From Nocardioides sp. (GTDB taxonomy: Bacteria > Actinomycetota > Actinomycetes > Propionibacteriales > Nocardioidaceae), in the NCBI RefSeq assembly GCF_047602075.1, contig NZ_JASGIF010000002.1, positions 1,322,609-1,386,608 on the forward strand: DNA of 64,000 nucleotides, written 5' to 3'. Below are positions 4,493 to 61,467 of this stretch, piece by piece. Within the stretch, counting starts at the first letter, position 1. Each line of letters begins with the position of its first letter. The position numbers and the translations under genes were made by a program. The notes beneath the pieces were generated by a model. That model did no database searches, was not told the origin of the DNA, and saw nothing but the letters and a program-made list of their open reading frames with translations.

Positions 4493-4633
4493 GTCTGCCG
4501 CGGTCTTCTTGCGTCTGGCGCGGTCTTGTCGTGGCAAAGTGCCCTGTATTCCGGGCCCTCAGCCACCACAGCACCGCGGCAGATGGGCCGGGGCCACCAC
4601 AGCACCGCGGCAGATGGGCCGGGGCCACCACAG
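4493..4633 (-). repeat. REP/BIME-like palindromic dispersed repeat, copy 1 (with 2.3 x 31-bp tandem left module)
   Basis: Reverse complement matches copies at 20474, 39479 and 59724. Tandem unit GCCACCACAGCACCGCGGCAGATGGGCCGGG at 4562-4592, 4593-4623 and partial 4624-4633. Confidence 0.9.
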
Positions 4634-4642
4634 AGCCAGACC

Positions 4643-4890
4643 TCAGCGGGGCAGCCCCGAGGAGCGCCAGCCGCCGGGACCGCTGGAGTAGCGCACCCGG
4701 ACGGCGCGGTGGGGCGAGGCCCACTCCGAGCGCTGGGTCGGTCTCGGCTTGCCCTGGCTGGACCCGAGGGCCGCGAAGACCGCCGTCAGCGCGGCGATCT
4801 CCTCCGGGGTCGCGTCGGGGTTGATCACCCGCAGGACGGGGCGCCCGACCGGGTCGGCCCCGTCGTGCAGAGGACCCTGCGCGTCGTCAG

Positions 4891-18727: not shown

Positions 18728-20464
18728 GTGGCCGACTGGGAGGACCCCGCCGACGCGCCGAGAGGCAGGCCCGACCGCAAGGGCGGCTGGGTCGTGGTGC
18801 TGCTGGTGCTGGGGCTGCTCGTCCTCTTCGGCGGCGCCTACGCGGTCGCCCACTTCGCCGCGGGCGACAAGGTCCCACGCGGCACCACCGTGGCCGGAGT
18901 CGAGCTCGGGGGACTGGCGCCCGATGACGCCGTCGCCGCGCTGCAGGACGGTCTCGCGGACCTGGTGGACCGGCCGATCACTGCCCAGGTCGGCGACCAG
19001 GAGACACAGGTCGACCCGGCGAAGGCCGGCCTGAGCGTCGACTACGACGCCTCGGTCGCCGCCGCGGGCGGCGGAGCCAGCTGGTCACCCTCCCGGTTGT
19101 GGCACTACTACACCGACGGCGCCGACCTGGATGCGGTCGTCGAGGTCGACGACGGCGCCATGGACAAGGCGCTCGACCAGGTGACCGGGCAGCTCGGCAC
19201 CCCTCCTCGAGATGCCGGCGTGGTCTTTCGGGGCACCCGGATCCGGACGACCTCGGCCGTCGAGGGTGAGGCGATCGACCCGGAGACCGGCCGCGAGGCG
19301 TTGGTGCAGGCGTTCCTCGCCGACGATCCGGTCGCCGAGATGCCGCTGGTCGAGACCGACCCGGACGTCTCCGACGACGACGCGCAACAGTTCGTCGACA
19401 CCTTCGCCAATCCAGCCGTGTCAGGTCCGGTCACGCTTCGCTTCGGCAAGTCGCCGGTGGTGTTGCGGCCGGCCGACTACACCGGAGCGCTGGAGGTGGT
19501 CGTCGAGGACGGCGCCCTGACCGCCCGGGTGGACGCCAAGAAGCTGCAGGCGCTGGTGGACGAGGAGGTCGGTGAGCCTGGCGCACCAGTCGATGCCACC
19601 GTCGCCCTGGTCGACGGCGAGCCACAGGTGGTCCCCGCCAAGCCCGGCGTGACCTACGACCCCGACGACGTCGCCACGGCCCTGCTCTCGGTGGTGGACC
19701 AACCCGCCGGCAAGCGCACCGCGGCGGTGAAGTCGACCGTGGCCGAGCCGGACTTCACCACCCGAGACGCCAGGAAGCTGAAGATCACCGAGAAGGTGTC
19801 GAGCTTCACGACTTACTACCCCTACGCCGAGTATCGCAATGTCAACATCGGCCGCGCGGCTCAACTCGTCAACGGCACCGTGTTGAAGCCGGGCGAGGTG
19901 TTCTCGCTCAACGGCGTGGTCGGTGAACGAACCCGGGAGAACGGCTTCACCGAGGGGTTCATCATCAGCAACGGCATCTTCAAGGAGGACCTCGGCGGCG
20001 GCGTCTCCCAGATGGCCACCACGACCTTCAATGCGATGTTCTTCGCCGGCCTCGAAGACATCGAGCACAAGCCACACTCGTTCTACATCGACCGCTATCC
20101 GGTCGGCCGCGAGGCCACCGTCGCCTGGCCCACGGTCGACCTGAAGTTCAAGAACGACACCCCTTACGGCGTGTTGATCGAAGCGCACGTCACCCCGTCC
20201 ACACCCACCGCCCAAGGTGTCGTCACGGTCTCGATGTGGTCGACGAAGTACTGGGACATCGGCACCAAGACCGGCGAGCGCTACAACCTCACCTCACCGG
20301 CCACCCGGGTGCTGGACACCGCCGACTGCTACCCCAACACCGGATACGGCGGCTTCGACATCAACGTCTGGCGCTACTTCCGCAAGCCCGGCTCCACCGA
20401 CGTGGTCCGCTCGGAGAAGTTCCACACCCACTACATCCCCTCCGACACGGTGATCTGCAAGTAG
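18728..20464 (+). CDS. VanW family protein with N-terminal TM and peptidoglycan-binding-like repeats
   Basis: RNVNI, GEVFSLN, GGGVSQMATT, YPVGREATV, DLKFKNDT. Confidence 0.9.
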   Translation: MADWEDPADAPRGRPDRKGGWVVVLLVLGLLVLFGGAYAVAHFAAGDKVPRGTTVAGVELGGLAPDDAVAALQDGLADLVDRPITAQVGDQETQVDPAKAGLSVDYDASVAAAGGGASWSPSRLWHYYTDGADLDAVVEVDDGAMDKALDQVTGQLGTPPRDAGVVFRGTRIRTTSAVEGEAIDPETGREALVQAFLADDPVAEMPLVETDPDVSDDDAQQFVDTFANPAVSGPVTLRFGKSPVVLRPADYTGALEVVVEDGALTARVDAKKLQALVDEEVGEPGAPVDATVALVDGEPQVVPAKPGVTYDPDDVATALLSVVDQPAGKRTAAVKSTVAEPDFTTRDARKLKITEKVSSFTTYYPYAEYRNVNIGRAAQLVNGTVLKPGEVFSLNGVVGERTRENGFTEGFIISNGIFKEDLGGGVSQMATTTFNAMFFAGLEDIEHKPHSFYIDRYPVGREATVAWPTVDLKFKNDTPYGVLIEAHVTPSTPTAQGVVTVSMWSTKYWDIGTKTGERYNLTSPATRVLDTADCYPNTGYGGFDINVWRYFRKPGSTDVVRSEKFHTHYIPSDTVICK

Positions 20465-20473
20465 CGGCGCCGA

Positions 20474-20597
20474 CCCATCTGCCGCGGTGCTGTGGTGGCC
20501 GTGACCCATCTGCCGCGGTGCTGTGGTGGCTGAGGACCCGGTATACCGGGCACTTTGCCACTACAAGACCGCGGGAGACGCACGAAGACCGCGGCAG
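20474..20597 (+). repeat. REP/BIME-like repeat, copy 2
   Basis: 2x CCCATCTGCCGCGGTGCTGTGGTGGC + TGAGGACCCGGTATACCGGGCACTTT + GCCACTACAAGACCGCGGGAGAC-GCACGAAGACCGCGGCAG. Confidence 0.9.
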
Positions 20598-20620: not shown

Positions 20621-21913
20621 CTACGGACCGAGCCGATGCAGGTCCCGGGGAAACAGGGTGACCTCGCGGATGTTCGCCGCCTCGACCAGTCGCGCCACCC
20701 AGCGCTCGAGCCCGATGGCGAAGCCACCGTGTGGTGGCATGCCGTGCCGGAACGCCTGGAGGTACGACGCGTAGTCGGCCGGGTTCTCGCCGCGGGCGCA
20801 GATCGCGGCGTCGTACTCCGATGGGCGGTGCAGGCGTTGTCCGCCGGTGACCAGCTCGAGGCCTCGGAAGAGCAGGTCGAAGCTGTTGGACCAGCGTGGG
20901 TCGTCGGGCTGCGGATGGGTGTAGAACGGCCGCTTCGCCATCGGATAGCCCTCGACCGCGATGAAGTCTGAGCCATGCTCGGCCTGCGCCCACTCGCCCA
21001 GCCAACGCTCGTGGTCGGGGGCGAGGTCGGGCTCGTCCTCGGCGGCACCGACCAGTCGCAGCGCGTCACGGAAGTGCACCACCGGGATCTCCTCCGGCAG
21101 CGCGGGCAGGGTCAGGTCGAGCCGGTCGACCGCAGCGGCGGCCTCCCGCTCGATAGCGCCGATCATCCCCGCCAACGCGGCGCGGAGAGTCGCGAGCACA
21201 TCGCGATGGTCCCGGATGAAGCCCAGCTCGGCGTCGAGGGAGACATACTCCGCCAGGTGTCGCACGGTGTCGTGCGGCTCGGCCCGGAAGACCGGACCGA
21301 CCTCGTAGACACGCTCGAAGACACCGACCATCTGCTGCTTGTAGAACTGCGGGCTCTGGGCCAGGTAGGCGGGCCGCCCGAAGTAGTCGACCTCGAAGAC
21401 GTTCGCGCCCGACTCCGTGGCCTGGGCCACCAGCTTCGGGGTCTGGATCTCGGTGAAGCCCAGCCCGTCCAGCGCACCGCGGAAACCGCGGATGCTCGCC
21501 GCGGCCAGCTCCCATCGGGCGCGCTGAGCGGGGTGGCGCCACGCCACCGCCGCGTGGTCGAGCTGCACGGGCAGGGTTGCCGACAGGTGCGGGCGCCACA
21601 GCTCGAACGGCGGAGTCTGGGCCGCTTCGCTCAGTGGCCGCACCCTCGCCTCGGTCACTTCGACGCCGCCGGGCGCCTGGGCGTTGGCGACCAGCGTGCC
21701 GATCACCTCGACCGGCGTCTCCTCGGGAGGGACGTCCGCGTCTGCGGGCAGCACGACCTGGGCCAGGCCGGTGCGGTCGCGCACGACCAGGAACGTCACC
21801 GTGGCCAGCTCACGGCGCCGATGCACCCAGCCTTGGAGCAGGACCAGGTCCCCGGGCGGAGCGGTGGGTAGGTCGGCAGCGAGCCTGCGGTGGGGACGGG
21901 CAGGGTCGGTCAT
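20621..21913 (-). CDS. aspS: Short (archaeal-type) non-discriminating aspartate--tRNA(Asp/Asn) ligase
   Basis: 430 aa, OB-fold GWVHRRR/FLVVRD, YLAQSPQFYKQ, FRAE, GMPPHGGFAIGLER; no bacterial insertion domain; GGAGGTG SD 8 nt before ATG 21913. Confidence 0.9.
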   Translation of the reverse strand: MTDPARPHRRLAADLPTAPPGDLVLLQGWVHRRRELATVTFLVVRDRTGLAQVVLPADADVPPEETPVEVIGTLVANAQAPGGVEVTEARVRPLSEAAQTPPFELWRPHLSATLPVQLDHAAVAWRHPAQRARWELAAASIRGFRGALDGLGFTEIQTPKLVAQATESGANVFEVDYFGRPAYLAQSPQFYKQQMVGVFERVYEVGPVFRAEPHDTVRHLAEYVSLDAELGFIRDHRDVLATLRAALAGMIGAIEREAAAAVDRLDLTLPALPEEIPVVHFRDALRLVGAAEDEPDLAPDHERWLGEWAQAEHGSDFIAVEGYPMAKRPFYTHPQPDDPRWSNSFDLLFRGLELVTGGQRLHRPSEYDAAICARGENPADYASYLQAFRHGMPPHGGFAIGLERWVARLVEAANIREVTLFPRDLHRLGP

Positions 21914-38001: not shown

Positions 38002-39455
<1,454 letters not shown>

Positions 39456-39478: not shown

Positions 39479-39600
39479 TCTGCCGCGGTGCTGTGGTGGC
39501 CCGGACCCAACTCCCGCGGTCCTATGGTGGCTGAGGACCCGGTATTCGGGGCACTTTGCCACTACAAGACCGCGGCAGACGCAAGAAGACCGCGGCAGAC
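39479..39600 (+). repeat. REP/BIME-like repeat, copy 3
   Basis: TCTGCCGCGGTGCTGTGGTGGC, degenerate second left module, TGAGGACCCGGTATTCGGGGCACTTT, GCCACTACAAGACCGCGGCAGAC-GCAAGAAGACCGCGGCAGAC. Confidence 0.9.
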
Positions 39601-39760
39601 GGCCCACCGCGCAGCAAGCCGGACGACCAGCGACCCGGCCAGCAACCCCAGCCAACAGCAACGCTCACCCGTCGTCGTTGCCCTGTCGGTCGCAACCCAA
39701 GGCGACCAGCGACCCGACCGGCAAACCCCGACCACGGTGGCGCCTCGGGGCCGCGAAGTT

Positions 39761-40024
39761 TCAGTTGACCTCGGTGCCGGTCTCCGACTCGACATAGGGG
39801 TGCTGTTTGACGAACGTCTTGGTCTCGGCATACATCCGCTCGATATAGGTCTCCAGCTCGCTCGACTCGACCCGCCATTGACCACGGCCACCGATCTTGA
39901 TGGCGGGCAGGTCACCGCGACGGACCAAGGCGTAGACCTGGGCACCCGAGGTGTTCAAGATCTCCGCAACGTCTGAGAGCGTGAGGAAGCGGGGTTGTGC
40001 GTCCTGGTGGTCCATGTCCTCCAT
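39761..40024 (-). CDS. Excisionase-family (HTH_17) DNA-binding protein
   Basis: FLTLSDVAEILN.S..QVYALVRRGDLPAIKIGGRGQWRV. Confidence 0.88.
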   Translation of the reverse strand: MEDMDHQDAQPRFLTLSDVAEILNTSGAQVYALVRRGDLPAIKIGGRGQWRVESSELETYIERMYAETKTFVKQHPYVESETGTEVN

Positions 40025-40115
40025 GGTGACACCCAGGGTGAAGTAATGGGACCCCGAAACGTCCGCTGTGGAGAACGGGGTGCCCATTCGCGCCGGTTTG
40101 CCGCATGATGACCCG

Positions 40116-59117: not shown

Positions 59118-59660
59118 ATGAAGGTCCTGGTCCTCGTCGGCAGCCTGCGCGACGACTCGGTGAACCGTCGGCTGGCTGACGCCGCGATCTCGCATCTGCC
59201 AGCCGGTGCGCAGGCAGTGATCTGGAACGGGATCGCCGAGCTGCCGCACTACAGCGAGGAGCTCGACGGCGCCGACGCTCCTGCCCGGGTGCAGCAGTTG
59301 CGCGATGCCGTCGCGTCGGCGGACGCGCTGATCCTGGTCACCCCGGAGTACAACGGCTCCCTGCCAGGCTCGCTCAAGAACGCCATCGACTGGCTCTCCC
59401 GGCCCCGAGGCAGCGCCGCCATCGCCGGCAAGCCGGTGGCCGTGCTCGCCGCCAGCGGCTCGCCGCGCGGCGCGCAGTGGGCTCGCGAGGACGCCGTGCG
59501 CATCCTCAAGGTCGCCGGCGCCGCGCCGCTGGAGAGCACCGTCGGCGTCCCGATCGCCCACCAGGTGTTGGTGGACGGTGTCGTGGCCGATGCCGCCGTC
59601 GACGCCGAGATCGCTGCCCTGGTCGCCCAGCTCAGCGACCTGCCTGTCGTCGCCGCGTAA
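59118..59660 (+). CDS. NADPH-dependent FMN reductase
   Basis: LVGSLR..S.N, TPEYNGSLPGSLKNAIDWLSRP. Confidence 0.93.
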   Translation: MKVLVLVGSLRDDSVNRRLADAAISHLPAGAQAVIWNGIAELPHYSEELDGADAPARVQQLRDAVASADALILVTPEYNGSLPGSLKNAIDWLSRPRGSAAIAGKPVAVLAASGSPRGAQWAREDAVRILKVAGAAPLESTVGVPIAHQVLVDGVVADAAVDAEIAALVAQLSDLPVVAA

Positions 59661-59723
59661 GGGCGTCATCCCTACGCCGCGCGTCGCCTGGCTATCCGGC
59701 CGCGGGTTGCTGGCGGCCGTGAG

Positions 59724-59817
59724 CCATCTCCCGCGGTGCTGTGGTGGCTGAGGACCCGGTGTACGAGGCACTTTGCCACTACAAGACCGCGGCAGACGCA
59801 AGAACACCGCGGCAGAC
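59724..59817 (+). repeat. REP/BIME-like repeat, copy 4 (single left module)
   Basis: CCATCTCCCGCGGTGCTGTGGTGGC-TGAGGACCCGGTGTACGAGGCACTTT-GCCACTACAAGACCGCGGCAGAC-GCAAGAACACCGCGGCAGAC. Confidence 0.9.
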
Positions 59818-59857: not shown

Positions 59858-60916
59858 CTACTTGTCTGCCTCGTCCACCACGGGCTGCCAGGCGAGGTGG
59901 TTGACCCAGCGGCCGTCGGCGATCTGGTGCCAGTCGCTGCCGTCGGGGTGGACGGCGTAGACCGGACCGCCCACGGTGTGCGCGTCGGGCTGCCCTACCG
60001 CCGTGGTCGCGATGTAGTCACCGTCCGGGGACCAGGTCACCGCAGGGTTGTAGCGCTTGCAGCCGCAGCTCCCGATGCTGCGCAGCACCGTCGAGTCGCT
60101 GCCGTCGGTCGGCAGCACCACCAGATCGATGTCGCGCACCGCGTCCCAACCGTGCGCCTGCAGCAGGGCGAGACTCGAGCCGTCGGGTGACCAGGCCGGG
60201 CCAGCCGCGGGCACGCCGCCGACCGCGCCGAGTCGGGTCACCTTCCCGCTGGCGACGTCGACCACGAAGTAGGCCACCTGCCGGTAGGCGCCGGCGTAGG
60301 CAGAGAACGCGATCCGGCTACCGTCCGGCGACCAGGCCGCGAAGATCACCTCGTGCCCGACGGCCAGTGGGGGCGCGCTGCCGCCGCCCATGCTGCCCCG
60401 AGTGATCGTCTTGCCGTCCCAGGCGGCCAGTTGAGTGCCGTCGGCTGAGACGGCGACATTGCAGGTCCGGTCGGGGCAGTCGTAGATCGCCCTGTCTTCA
60501 CCGGTGGCCAGGAAGCGGCTGCGGAGCTTGCCGTCATAGGTATAGATCAGGGTCGACCCGTCCGTCGTGAACTGGAAGGGGCCGAACGCGCCGGCCGCGG
60601 TCGCCGGCAGTTGCGTGGTCGGCTTCCCACTCGCTCGCGTCACCGCCGCTTGGCCGTCGCCGTCGACGGACAGGCCGACGAGGGCGCCGTTGGCGTCGAA
60701 CACCGGGCCGGCGGCAACGGGCGGCGCACTGTCGGGACGGAGTTGTTGTACGCCGACGCCGACGCCGACGACCGCCAGCACGGCAACCACCGCGCCTGCC
60801 CTGGTCGCCCGCCTGCGACGGCGGAGCTGGCGCAGCGACTGCCAGCCCTGCTCGACGTCCGGGGTGGTGCGGAGCAGCTCGTCGGTGGCCTCTTTGGCTC
60901 GCGCATTCAGATCCAT
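59858..60916 (-). CDS. Putative anti-sigma factor with TM and TolB/PD40-like beta-propeller
   Basis: Short N-terminal helix, RRRRR then TM, repeated WSPDG motifs; coupled to the ECF stop. Confidence 0.8.
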   Translation of the reverse strand: MDLNARAKEATDELLRTTPDVEQGWQSLRQLRRRRRATRAGAVVAVLAVVGVGVGVQQLRPDSAPPVAAGPVFDANGALVGLSVDGDGQAAVTRASGKPTTQLPATAAGAFGPFQFTTDGSTLIYTYDGKLRSRFLATGEDRAIYDCPDRTCNVAVSADGTQLAAWDGKTITRGSMGGGSAPPLAVGHEVIFAAWSPDGSRIAFSAYAGAYRQVAYFVVDVASGKVTRLGAVGGVPAAGPAWSPDGSSLALLQAHGWDAVRDIDLVVLPTDGSDSTVLRSIGSCGCKRYNPAVTWSPDGDYIATTAVGQPDAHTVGGPVYAVHPDGSDWHQIADGRWVNHLAWQPVVDEADK

Positions 60917-61467
60917 CACTCGTCCCCTCCGTCGGCGGCGGACTCGGCCGACCCCTCGGCGATGCCCAGGGTGTCGCTGAGCGCCCGGCGCGCTCGACTC
61001 AGATGTTGTTTCACGGTGCCCTCGCTGCACGACAGCACGGCTGCGATATCGGCGATGGGCAGGTCGTAGACGAAGCGCAGCGCTGCTGCCTGCGCCTGTC
61101 GCTTGGGCAGTGCCCGGACCGCGCGCCAGAACTCCTCGGTGTCCTCGCTCACCGGCGGCAGATCGCGCCGGTTGGCCAGCCGTCCGACCACACGCAGCTC
61201 GACCATCTTGCGCCGGAAGCTGGAGACCGCGAGGTTGGCGCACGCCCGCCGGGCCCAGAGATCTGGTCGCTCCAGCCGGGCGACGTGGTCCCACTTGCGG
61301 TAGGCCGCCAGCATCGCCTCCTGGGCGATGTCCTCGGCCACCCCCGGTGGGCACAGTCCCCGCGCCAGCACGACCAACCGCGGCAGCTCGGCGGCATAGA
61401 ACTCCTCGAACGACGGCAGGCCGCGGTGCTGCTCGGCAGCCGCGGTCGACACGTCGAGGTGATCCAT
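60916..61467 (-). CDS. ECF sigma-70 factor
   Basis: AEDIAQEAML, GTVKQHLSRAR. Confidence 0.9.
   Translation of the reverse strand: MDHLDVSTAAAEQHRGLPSFEEFYAAELPRLVVLARGLCPPGVAEDIAQEAMLAAYRKWDHVARLERPDLWARRACANLAVSSFRRKMVELRVVGRLANRRDLPPVSEDTEEFWRAVRALPKRQAQAAALRFVYDLPIADIAAVLSCSEGTVKQHLSRARRALSDTLGIAEGSAESAADGGDE

What the first reader, a model, noticed from the sequence alone, without database searches (positions are those of the whole stretch)
4493..4633. Modular palindromic repeat family (REP/BIME-like): 4 copies, always sense-oriented right after a stop codon
Seen at 4493-4633(-), 20474-20597(+), 39479-39600(+) and 59724-59817(+). Layout: [left module CCCATCTGCCGCGGTGCTGTGGTGGC x1-2.3] + 26-nt spacer TGAGGACCCGGTAYWCNGGGCACTTT + right module GCCACTACAAGACCGCGGCAGAC + partial right duplicate. 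Left and right arms are 22-nt imperfect inverted repeats, so the unit folds into a long hairpin. Each copy starts 9-63 nt after a stop codon in the same orientation as that gene. Copy 1, between co-directional genes, fixes the polarity. One copy per ~16-20 kb implies many genome-wide (inference). No transposase is present in the window, so the mobiliser is unknown. This could be an undescribed actinobacterial REP/MITE system with a trans-acting nuclease or transposase, or a 3'-UTR RNA element.
Basis: partly seen in the sequence, partly recalled or inferred. Interest (0 to 1): 0.7.

Follow-up and report, generated by a model that had tools for sequence, protein, structure and literature searches.

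The report
Hairpin repeat family with its own nuclease gene
The four copies belong to a family of about 104 hairpin-forming DNA repeats parked at gene ends in a Nocardioides-like bacterium, and the family is tied across the genus to one conserved, hairpin-flanked gene for a predicted DNA-binding nuclease, which resembles the REP/RAYT systems of proteobacteria but uses a different enzyme.

Summary
All four copies are present with the described modular layout, and the genome holds about 104 loci (3.93 Mb, 69% GC). The claimed polarity is not real. In co-directional gene gaps, 17 copies are sense and 23 antisense. There is no replication-strand bias (52:52).

What holds is a 3'-end preference. 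56 of 104 copies lie between convergent genes (16 expected), and 96 adjoin a stop codon (median 20 nt).

I found no RAYT gene, no IS element with matching ends, no target-site duplication and no Rfam match.

A sister species at 93.5% identity shares most sites but differs at others and in module number.

The core is a 79-nt imperfect hairpin with compensatory changes. A covariance model finds relatives in 43 of 401 genomes of the genus. A second branch with TGTAACGC/GCGTTACA ends is in 164 of 401.

The main new result concerns one 340-aa gene (AbiEi-type winged helix plus a predicted Vsr-like PD-(D/E)XK nuclease domain). It usually lies between fba and a DUF3151 gene. It has matching palindromes on both flanks in 25 of 26 loci from 20 genomes, and the hairpin ends vary with the protein clade.

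Best reading: a REP/RAYT-like system with a different enzyme. Mobilisation by this protein is inferred, not shown.

The parts
4493..4633 (-). Copy 1, full element. Partial left unit 4633-4619; left units 4618-4593 and 4587-4562; spacer 4561-4536; right arm 4535-4513; partial right repeat 4512-4493. It lies between the ACC_epsilon stop (4643-4645) and the DUF885 gene, which run in the same direction.
4512..4590 (-). Copy 1, 79-nt core hairpin (covariance model R1 match)
   Evidence: G000:C2:1327120-1327198
20474..20597 (+). Copy 2, full element (two left units). It lies in the convergent gap between the VanW-like gene (stop 20462-20464) and the class II Asp/Asn-type tRNA synthetase gene (20621-21913, minus strand).
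20502..20580 (+). Copy 2, 79-nt core hairpin (R1, 90.1 bits)
39479..39600 (+). Copy 3, full element (two left units). It lies in the convergent gap between the HtrA-like protease gene (stop 39453-39455) and an HTH_17 gene (39761-40087, minus strand).
39503..39581 (+). Copy 3, 79-nt core hairpin (R1)
39601..39700 (+). Partner mosaic module next to copy 3 (ACCAGCGACCCGGCCAGCAACCCC ... GCCCTGTCGGTCGCAACCC). This is the 'outer arm' repeat that accompanies about 28 copies genome-wide.
59724..59817 (+). Copy 4 (one intact left unit, with a degenerate left unit at 59699-59723). It lies in the convergent gap between the FMN-reductase gene (stop 59658-59660) and a beta-propeller gene (59858-60919, minus strand).
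59720..59798 (+). Copy 4, 79-nt core hairpin (R1)

Best explanation
The copies are dispersed members, without a gene of their own, of a family of 79-nt imperfect hairpin repeats. The core is extended by 31-nt left and 20-nt right units. The family has expanded to about 100 copies in this Nocardioides-like species and its sister species.

It is one branch of a genus-wide superfamily. The gene-bearing form of that superfamily is a unit of about 1.3 kb: hairpin, then a 340-aa gene, then hairpin. The gene encodes an AbiEi-type winged-helix DNA-binding domain joined to a predicted Vsr-like PD-(D/E)XK nuclease domain.

In outline this is the REP/RAYT (or MITE/IS) arrangement with a different enzyme.

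Shown: the repeat family, its hairpin, its gene-end and convergent-gap placement in either orientation, turnover between sister species, and the universal flanking of the gene by cognate hairpins.

Inferred: the protein binds the roughly 22-bp arms and cuts there, and so spreads or maintains the hairpins. Copies survive mainly downstream of genes, where they do not break promoters, and there they may also act as orientation-independent 3'-end hairpins.
For: Copy number and placement:
- 104 loci, 102 of them intergenic.
- 56 convergent, 40 tandem and 8 divergent gaps, against 16, 72 and 16 expected (p=1e-26).
- 96 of 104 adjoin a gene 3' end, at a median of 20 nt.
- Size classes of 70, 90, 121 and 152 nt, built from modules.

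Turnover, from the sister MAG at 93.5% identity:
- About 24-27 elements are shared at orthologous sites.
- 7 sites are filled only in the MAG.
- Some orthologous sites hold different mosaic content, and 31-nt units are gained or lost.

Hairpin conservation:
- On 35 family members and relatives, the covariation score is 0.200 against 0.132 shuffled (0 of 500 shuffles reach it), and 24 of 35 pairs change on both sides.
- On 72 matches (36 gene-flanking sites read on both strands) from 14 genomes, the score is 0.582 against 0.202, with 82% of cells paired against 58%.

Distribution:
- The R1 model matches 43 of 401 genus genomes, at copy numbers from about 6 to more than 75 loci.
- The second branch, TGTAACGC...GCGTTACA, is in 164 of 401 genomes, and the reversed-pattern control gives 0.

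The gene:
- The own copy (G000:C1:2255180-2256199) lies between two hairpins that have the family's arms.
- In 24 of 26 homologue loci from 20 genomes an R1 hairpin lies on both sides.
- Of the other two, one (G018) has a shorter shared palindrome on both sides. The other (a truncated paralogue in G346) has a full hairpin upstream and only its inner remnant downstream.
- The two hairpins of one gene are nearly identical to each other but differ between genomes. The hairpin ends vary with the protein clade.
- The main copy is syntenic between fba and DUF3151 in at least 12 genomes. Extra copies elsewhere are also flanked.

The protein:
- 27 of 35 homologues match AbiEi_4.
- D240, E249, D251 and K255 are invariant.
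- The model has pLDDT 88.5.
- The best domain-level fold matches are the I-Bth0305I homing endonuclease (probability 0.98, TM 0.70), Vsr and TnsA.
Against: No transposition, cleavage or binding has been observed.

No target-site duplication was found, and no clean insertion junction. The seven sites filled only in the MAG are composite, and at least one difference looks like a palindrome-centre deletion in this genome.

The nuclease assignment is weak. Every Foldseek E-value is above 0.1. The own protein has no Pfam, NCBIfam or PDB sequence match.

Orthologous elements are more conserved than third codon positions (0.929 against 0.881). That could mean host-level function rather than selfish spread.

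One carrier genome (G268, 87% complete) shows no homologue of the gene.

Gene calls come from a home-made codon-bias caller.
Confidence: 0.6

Rival explanations
1. These are host-function hairpins, acting as bidirectional transcription terminators or as protectors of mRNA 3' ends. Selection spreads and keeps them, and the flanked gene is merely insulated by two of them.
For: Strong bias to convergent gaps and to stop-codon-proximal positions, in either orientation. Very stable hairpins on both strands. Orthologues are more conserved than third codon positions. A convergent bias is also known for REPs (PMC3184786).
Against: No U-tract follows the hairpin on either strand. Actinobacterial RNA polymerase was shown to need a U-tract at intrinsic terminators (PMC3993855). 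Most species of the genus lack this family. In genomes with only about 6 loci, two of them flank this one gene. The hairpin ends vary with the protein clade.
Confidence: 0.15
2. The hairpins are operator or architectural binding sites for the winged-helix protein (a dispersed regulon or nucleoid-organising sites), with no mobility driven by that protein. AbiEi-type proteins are known to bind inverted repeats.
For: The AbiEi_4 domain is found in 27 of 35 homologues. The arms are inverted repeats of about 22 bp, and the core length is fixed at 79 nt in 87 of 104 copies. Sites lie on both sides of the protein's own gene.
Against: Invariant acidic and lysine residues in a nuclease-like fold argue for catalysis. 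The sites avoid promoter-bearing divergent gaps (8 against 16 expected). Copy number ranges from about 6 to more than 100 between related species, and sites turn over between sister species. Extra gene copies carry their own hairpins to new loci.
Confidence: 0.15
3. It is a classical MITE mobilised by a DDE transposase of a resident IS element.
For: Terminal inverted repeats, a small size, and presence/absence differences between species.
Against: None of the five IS families in the genome has related ends. There is no target-site duplication above background.
Confidence: 0.04
4. It is a polar 3'-UTR RNA element that acts only in the sense orientation.
For: All four window copies are sense to the upstream gene.
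Against: 17 sense against 23 antisense in informative gaps. The antisense strand pairs slightly better (19.4 against 18.4 of 23 positions). There is no Rfam match.
Confidence: 0.03

Closest known systems
REP/REPIN elements with RAYT transposases (Pseudomonas, Enterobacteria; PMC3116915, PMC3337134)
   Same: GC-rich extragenic palindromes in about 100 or more copies. Two inverted arms around a spacer. A bias to convergent gene gaps. An associated gene, one or a few copies per genome and mostly syntenic, that is itself flanked by the repeats. Lineage-specific sequence families.
   Different: No Y1/HUH transposase in any of 12 carrier genomes. The associated protein is a winged helix plus a predicted PD-(D/E)XK domain. 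The hairpin is longer (a 35-position imperfect stem). There is no GTAG motif. The host is an actinobacterium.
BIMEs of E. coli, and the NIME and RIME intergenic mosaic elements (PMC3184786)
   Same: Modular mosaics. The unit combines with other short repeat modules, and the composition varies from locus to locus.
   Different: About 30% of copies sit at the centre of longer nested palindromes of 200-800 nt. The module sequences are unrelated. Binding of gyrase or IHF is not known here.
MITEs and their parent IS elements
   Same: A short form without a gene and a gene-bearing form share the same terminal structures. Presence and absence differ between close relatives.
   Different: No target-site duplication. 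No DDE transposase partner. The gene-bearing unit is mostly syntenic and present in one or a few copies.
Vsr-like PD-(D/E)XK nucleases: homing endonuclease I-Bth0305I (PDB 3r3p), Vsr (1vsr), Tn7 TnsA (1t0f)
   Same: Best fold matches of the C-terminal domain. The domain has an invariant D...E-x-D-G-x-x-K motif.
   Different: Only weak structural scores and no sequence-level match. A different domain architecture. Not within an intron or intein, and not part of a Tn7-like operon.
AbiEi antitoxins of type IV toxin-antitoxin systems
   Same: The N-terminal AbiEi_4 winged-helix domain. This is how databases name the homologues.
   Different: There is no adjacent AbiEii toxin gene. The neighbours are fba and DUF3151. 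The C-terminal domain is different.
MIRUs of mycobacteria
   Same: Actinobacterial intergenic repeats of similar size, present in tens of copies.
   Different: MIRUs are polar, lie within operons and are not long hairpins. Here orientation is random and the element is a hairpin at gene ends.

Membership tests
REP/REPIN-RAYT system | High-copy extragenic palindromic repeats built of two inverted arms | tested here: met
   104 loci, 102 intergenic; arms of 22-23 nt around a 26-nt spacer
REP/REPIN-RAYT system | A RAYT gene (Y1 HUH transposase, PF01797) in the genome, flanked by the repeats | tested here: not met
   PF01797 is absent from the own genome and from 11 other carriers in six-frame searches, while the controls are positive
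REP/REPIN-RAYT system | A conserved GTAG tetranucleotide at the REP 5' end | tested here: not met
   The ends read CCC(A/G)TCTGCCGCGG and CCGCGGCAGAC(G), with no GTAG
REP/REPIN-RAYT system | An associated single-copy, vertically inherited gene flanked by cognate repeats (of whatever protein family) | tested here: met
   The 340-aa gene has matching palindromes on both sides in 25 of 26 loci (one side plus a remnant in the 26th). It is syntenic between fba and DUF3151 in at least 12 genomes
MITE | Terminal inverted repeats | tested here: met
MITE | Target-site duplications flanking each copy | tested here: not met
   The best direct repeat at the junctions averages 3.7 nt for cognate flanks and 3.5 nt for non-cognate flanks
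MITE | A parent IS element with the same ends that encodes a known transposase | tested here: not met
   The five IS families (by eye IS1634-, IS481-, IS4-, ISAs1- and IS5-like) have unrelated ends
BIME-type mosaic | Clusters that combine the palindromic unit with other conserved motifs in variable arrangements | tested here: met
   About 30% of loci extend up to 500 nt on the 5' side and 270 nt on the 3' side into other repeat modules. 26 of 28 'arm' modules lie within 700 nt of an element
Canonical intrinsic terminator | A GC-rich hairpin followed at once by a U-tract | tested here: not met
   The hairpin is present, but no T-run follows on either strand
Any Rfam RNA family | A covariance-model match | tested here: not met
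   No match at the gathering score over the window, and none at E<=1 on a copy
AbiE type IV toxin-antitoxin | AbiEi antitoxin domain | tested here: met
   PF13338 is matched by 27 of 35 homologues. The own copy falls below threshold
AbiE type IV toxin-antitoxin | An adjacent AbiEii nucleotidyltransferase toxin gene | tested here: not met
   The gene is bounded by hairpins, then by fba and DUF3151
PD-(D/E)XK (Vsr-like) nuclease | The restriction-endonuclease-like fold with conserved D...(D/E)xK residues | tested here: inconclusive
   D240, E249, D251 and K255 are invariant. Fold matches to 3r3p, 1vsr and 1t0f have TM up to 0.70 on the target, but E-values above 0.1. There is no Pfam or PDB sequence match

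The most novel reading that the evidence does not exclude
The hairpin-gene-hairpin unit is a new kind of bacterial mobile or domesticated element. A winged-helix/PD-(D/E)XK nuclease, rather than an HUH, DDE, serine or tyrosine enzyme, recognises cognate arms of about 22 bp and propagates hairpin repeats. This would be a RAYT-independent origin of REP-like sequences, spread through a whole actinobacterial genus in co-evolving protein-hairpin lineages.
Probability: 0.4. Interest if true: 0.85.

Novelty: new variant of a known kind. Interest (0 to 1): 0.72.

Why it matters
How REP-like repeats arise and spread is understood only where a RAYT transposase is present, mostly in proteobacteria. Here a REP-like family in an actinobacterium has no RAYT, yet it shows the same genetic signature: a conserved gene, in one or a few copies, flanked by cognate repeats, with a different and uncharacterised predicted nuclease.

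If the protein acts on the hairpins, three things follow. It would be a second enzymatic route to REP-type repeats. It would give a function to a large group of proteins now annotated as 'AbiEi antitoxin domain-containing' or hypothetical (816 database clusters at E <= 1e-10 in a capped search). And it would give an experimental handle, through natural protein-arm specificity pairs across hundreds of species.

The repeats also explain why assemblies of these genomes break, and they mark hypervariable intergenic sites.

Tried and rejected
- Fixed polarity relative to the upstream gene: rejected, 17 sense against 23 antisense.
- Replication-strand bias, as seen in IS200/IS605-type elements: none, 52 against 52.
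- RAYT partner: absent.
- DDE IS partner: none with related ends.
- Target-site duplications: none above background.
- Insertion into the tip of a pre-existing hairpin: the flanks of solo copies are no more complementary than non-cognate flank pairs (-19.9 against -20.7 kcal/mol, p=0.89). Nested palindromes do exist in composite loci.
- Selection for perfect pairing within each copy: only a slight excess of cognate pairing (18.4 against 17.9 of 23). Some mismatches are conserved, and one polymorphic position assorts independently between the arms.
- Rfam and plasmid records: no match.
- Pfam, NCBIfam and PDB sequence searches of the own protein: nothing.
- Exact insertion junctions from the sister MAG: the sites filled only in the MAG are composite and too diverged to give base-level boundaries. 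790 kb of further MAG sequence gave no clean own-only solo site.
- Literature: no paper in the held library describes such repeats in Nocardioides or links AbiEi/DUF559-type proteins to interspersed repeats.

Full report
**1. The observation**

The four copies are at 4493-4633(-), 20474-20597(+), 39479-39600(+) and 59724-59817(+), as described. They are 84-90% alike over 123-137 nt. An alignment shows the modular layout:
- one to 2.3 left units of 31 nt (CCCATCTGCCGCGGTGCTGTGGTGGC plus a linker);
- a 26-nt spacer with a small central palindrome;
- a 23-nt right arm;
- a 20-nt partial right repeat.

As single strands they fold into nested hairpins, with dG from -43 to -76 kcal/mol and z from -2.6 to -6.9. 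Both strands fold equally well. There is no Rfam match.

The flanking genes are real:
- Copy 1 lies between two genes that run in the same direction, ACC_epsilon and DUF885.
- Copy 2 lies between the convergent VanW-like and class II aminoacyl-tRNA synthetase genes.
- Copy 3 lies between the convergent HtrA-like protease and HTH_17 genes.
- Copy 4 lies between the convergent FMN-reductase and beta-propeller genes.

So only copy 1 says anything about polarity.

**2. Genome-wide picture**

The window is C2:1322609-1386608 of a two-contig genome of 3.93 Mb and 69% GC. A profile built from the four copies finds 104 loci, each with a clear best strand.

I called genes with a codon-bias caller written for this genome (3676 genes, 88% coding). 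Results:
- 102 of the 104 loci are intergenic.
- 56 lie in convergent gaps, 40 in tandem gaps and 8 in divergent gaps. By gap counts, 16, 72 and 16 are expected (chi-square p=1e-26).
- 96 adjoin a gene 3' end, at a median distance of 20 nt.
- In tandem gaps the element sits near the upstream stop, not the downstream start.
- Its orientation there is 17 sense against 23 antisense (p=0.43).

Orientation relative to the replication direction, inferred from GC skew, is 52:52. The 'always sense' rule is therefore a small-sample effect. The preference for gene ends is real. The same convergent bias is known for REPs (PMC3184786).

Element lengths fall into classes of 70, 90, 121 and 152 nt, according to the number of modules. 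31 elements touch or overlap a stop codon. In 11 cases the TGA inside the element's TGACCCA edge is the stop codon of the upstream gene.

**3. Classical explanations tested**

- No Y1/RAYT gene is found in this genome or in 11 other carriers, while the control genomes are positive.
- The five IS families in the genome have unrelated ends.
- There is no target-site duplication above background.
- The flanks of solo copies are not split halves of an older hairpin.
- No T-run follows the hairpin on either strand. Mycobacterial RNA polymerase needs a U-tract at intrinsic terminators (PMC3993855). The element is therefore not a canonical terminator.

**4. Mosaics and turnover**

About 70% of copies stand alone. 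About 30% lie inside longer repeated blocks, reaching up to 500 nt on the 5' side and 270 nt on the 3' side. These blocks are nested palindromes, and the flagged hairpin sits at their centre. The outer arms include CCGGGTTGCTGG / CCAGCAACCCGG and GGTGCTCGCCGACAGGGCAGCTAC / GTAGCTGCCCTGTCGGTCGCAACC. The partner modules almost always accompany an element: 26 of 28 'arm' loci do.

A pattern scan of species-representative genomes found the same family in one other named record, the MAG 'Nocardioidaceae bacterium AS-MESO-3CA.287'. This MAG is syntenic with the present genome at 93.5% identity.

Comparing the two genomes:
- About 24-27 elements are shared at orthologous sites, in the same orientation.
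- Seven MAG elements lie in blocks of 200-600 nt that are missing here.
- Several orthologous gaps hold different module sets.
- 31-nt left units are gained or lost in place.
- At least one difference looks like a deletion of a palindrome centre in this genome.

Orthologous elements are 92.9% identical. Third codon positions are 88.1% identical and other alignable intergenic DNA is 93.0%. This points to some constraint, or to alignment bias.

**5. A conserved hairpin and a genus-wide superfamily**

Within the genome there is a divergent subfamily with different stem sequences that still pair. Weak relatives with the same architecture exist in other species of the genus.

On a gap-free 79-column alignment of 35 diverse members, a 35-pair hairpin gives:
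- a covariation score of 0.200 against 0.132 in shuffles (0 of 500 reach it);
- 0.04-0.09 when the partners are slid by 1-3 columns;
- changes on both sides in 24 of the 35 pairs.

Some mismatches are conserved, and one polymorphic position assorts independently between the arms. The stem is therefore imperfect by design or by descent.

A covariance model (R1) matches 43 of 401 genomes of the genus. Hit counts, which include both strands and are capped at 150, run from 12 to at least 150. By BLAST, the high-copy form of this exact family is confined to this genome and its sister.

**6. The associated gene**

Two low-scoring copies lie 1.3 kb apart (C1 2255031-2255155 and 2256315-2256443). They bracket a 340-aa open reading frame. 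Both are co-oriented with it and both carry the family's arms.

The homologues of this gene in other carrier genomes lie next to R1 matches. I fetched 26 homologue loci from 20 genomes. In 24 of them an R1-type hairpin lies on both sides of the gene, 4-220 nt from the ends of the aligned gene. This includes genomes that had scored as non-carriers. Of the remaining two loci:
- one (G018) has a shorter palindrome that is the same on both sides;
- the other (a truncated paralogue in G346) has a full hairpin upstream and only its inner remnant downstream.

The two hairpins around one gene are nearly identical to each other but differ between genomes. Their ends vary with the protein clade:
- Proteins at least 50% identical to ours go with CCCxxCT.CCGCGG / CCGCGG.AGxxGGG ends.
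- Most proteins at 41-48% identity go with TGTAACGC / GCGTTACA ends. A few of them carry other related ends.

The gene-flanking hairpins give strong covariation on 72 matches, which are 36 sites read on both strands, from 14 genomes:
- 82.2% of cells paired against 57.6% in shuffles;
- a score of 0.582 against 0.202;
- at most 0.151 in the slid controls.

That alignment was fitted to the model, which favours the structure.

The TGTAACGC...GCGTTACA hairpin is itself dispersed. It occurs in 164 of 401 genomes, with up to 31 exact matches per genome, and the reversed-pattern control gives 0 everywhere.

The main gene copy lies between class II fructose-bisphosphate aldolase and a DUF3151 gene in at least 12 genomes. 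Additional copies elsewhere (for example three in G014) carry their own hairpin pair.

**7. The protein**

The family is large: 816 clusters at E <= 1e-10 in a capped search. Databases label its members 'AbiEi antitoxin domain-containing' or hypothetical. 27 of 35 homologues match the AbiEi_4 winged-helix domain. The own copy and the whole C-terminal part match no Pfam, NCBIfam or PDB sequence.

Invariant residues include D240, E249, D251 and K255, within WCDLRVG...FEVDGRxKY.

An AlphaFold model is confident (pLDDT 88.5, pTM 0.86). Its best domain-level structural matches are the I-Bth0305I homing endonuclease catalytic domain (probability 0.98, target TM 0.70), Vsr, a Neisseria endonuclease-like protein and Tn7 TnsA. 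All of them have E-values above 0.1. The Vsr-like PD-(D/E)XK assignment is therefore plausible but not secure.

There is no toxin gene next to the gene.

**8. Interpretation**

Shown:
- a modular hairpin repeat family at gene ends, independent of orientation;
- turnover between sister species;
- a genus-wide superfamily with compensatory stem changes;
- a specific, near-universal association with a hairpin-flanked gene that is mostly syntenic, in which protein clade and hairpin ends vary together.

Inferred:
- the protein binds the arms through its winged helix and cuts with its C-terminal domain, and this propagates or maintains the hairpins;
- the placement at gene ends reflects tolerance, or a secondary role as a 3'-end hairpin.

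This is how REP/RAYT systems are organised. It is not a member of that family, because the defining Y1 transposase and the GTAG motif were tested and are absent. It fails the MITE definition on target-site duplications and on a transposase-bearing parent IS element.

I found no description of these repeats or of this association in the held literature.

**9. Verdict**

I class it as a new variant of a known kind. The interest lies mainly in the candidate enzyme that is not a RAYT.

Noticed in passing
Own genome outside the window, e.g. G000:C2:87300-88300 (mosaic around the element at C2 87600-87734): Other intergenic repeat families travel with the element. One is a hairpin unit of about 120-150 nt and lower GC (GTCACTCC...TTGCTGCAACATCAAGG...; 19 loci). 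A second is CATCGATTGGGCCGAAACTGCATCC-type units of about 22 nt (22 loci). A third is a GGTTGCGGTTTGGGCCCAAACGGCAACC palindrome module (35 loci).
   Followed up: partly
401 genomes of the genus, e.g. L170 (G024:C2:510278-510347): A second hairpin family of 70-72 nt, with TGTAACGC...GCGTTACA ends, is dispersed in 164 of 401 genus genomes, with up to 31 exact matches per genome. It flanks the more distant homologues of the same gene.
   Followed up: partly
G000:C1:184708-186505, 628076-629511, 849994-851489, 1062005-1063307, 1236979-1237951: Five IS families in 2-5 near-identical copies each (by eye IS1634-, IS481/rve-, IS4-, ISAs1- and IS5-like). A 375-bp repeat (C1 1234303-1234679, three copies) interrupts one IS copy at C2 982266-982640.
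   Followed up: partly
G000:C1:39384-49929 and 535354-545900; C1:17282-27245 and 512012-521983; all four contig ends: Duplications of 10 kb at 99-99.95% identity. The four contig ends share repeats of 5-10 kb (97-99%), which is probably where the assembly broke.
   Followed up: no
G000:C2:874800-878800: A stretch of about 4 kb that matches itself at many offsets of roughly 72-75 nt at about 75% identity. This is a long internally repetitive region, possibly a large repeat protein.
   Followed up: no
   Followed up: no
Genome-wide: 31 of 104 elements touch or overlap a flanking stop codon, and 4 do so on both sides. In 11 of 73 co-oriented upstream genes the stop is the TGA of the element's own TGACCCA edge, so the repeat supplies the end of the reading frame.
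   Followed up: partly
Logan/ENA contigs of the gene's homologues: Most database contigs that carry homologues of the hairpin-flanked gene are only 1.2-3 kb long. This fits assemblies breaking at the flanking repeats.
   Followed up: no
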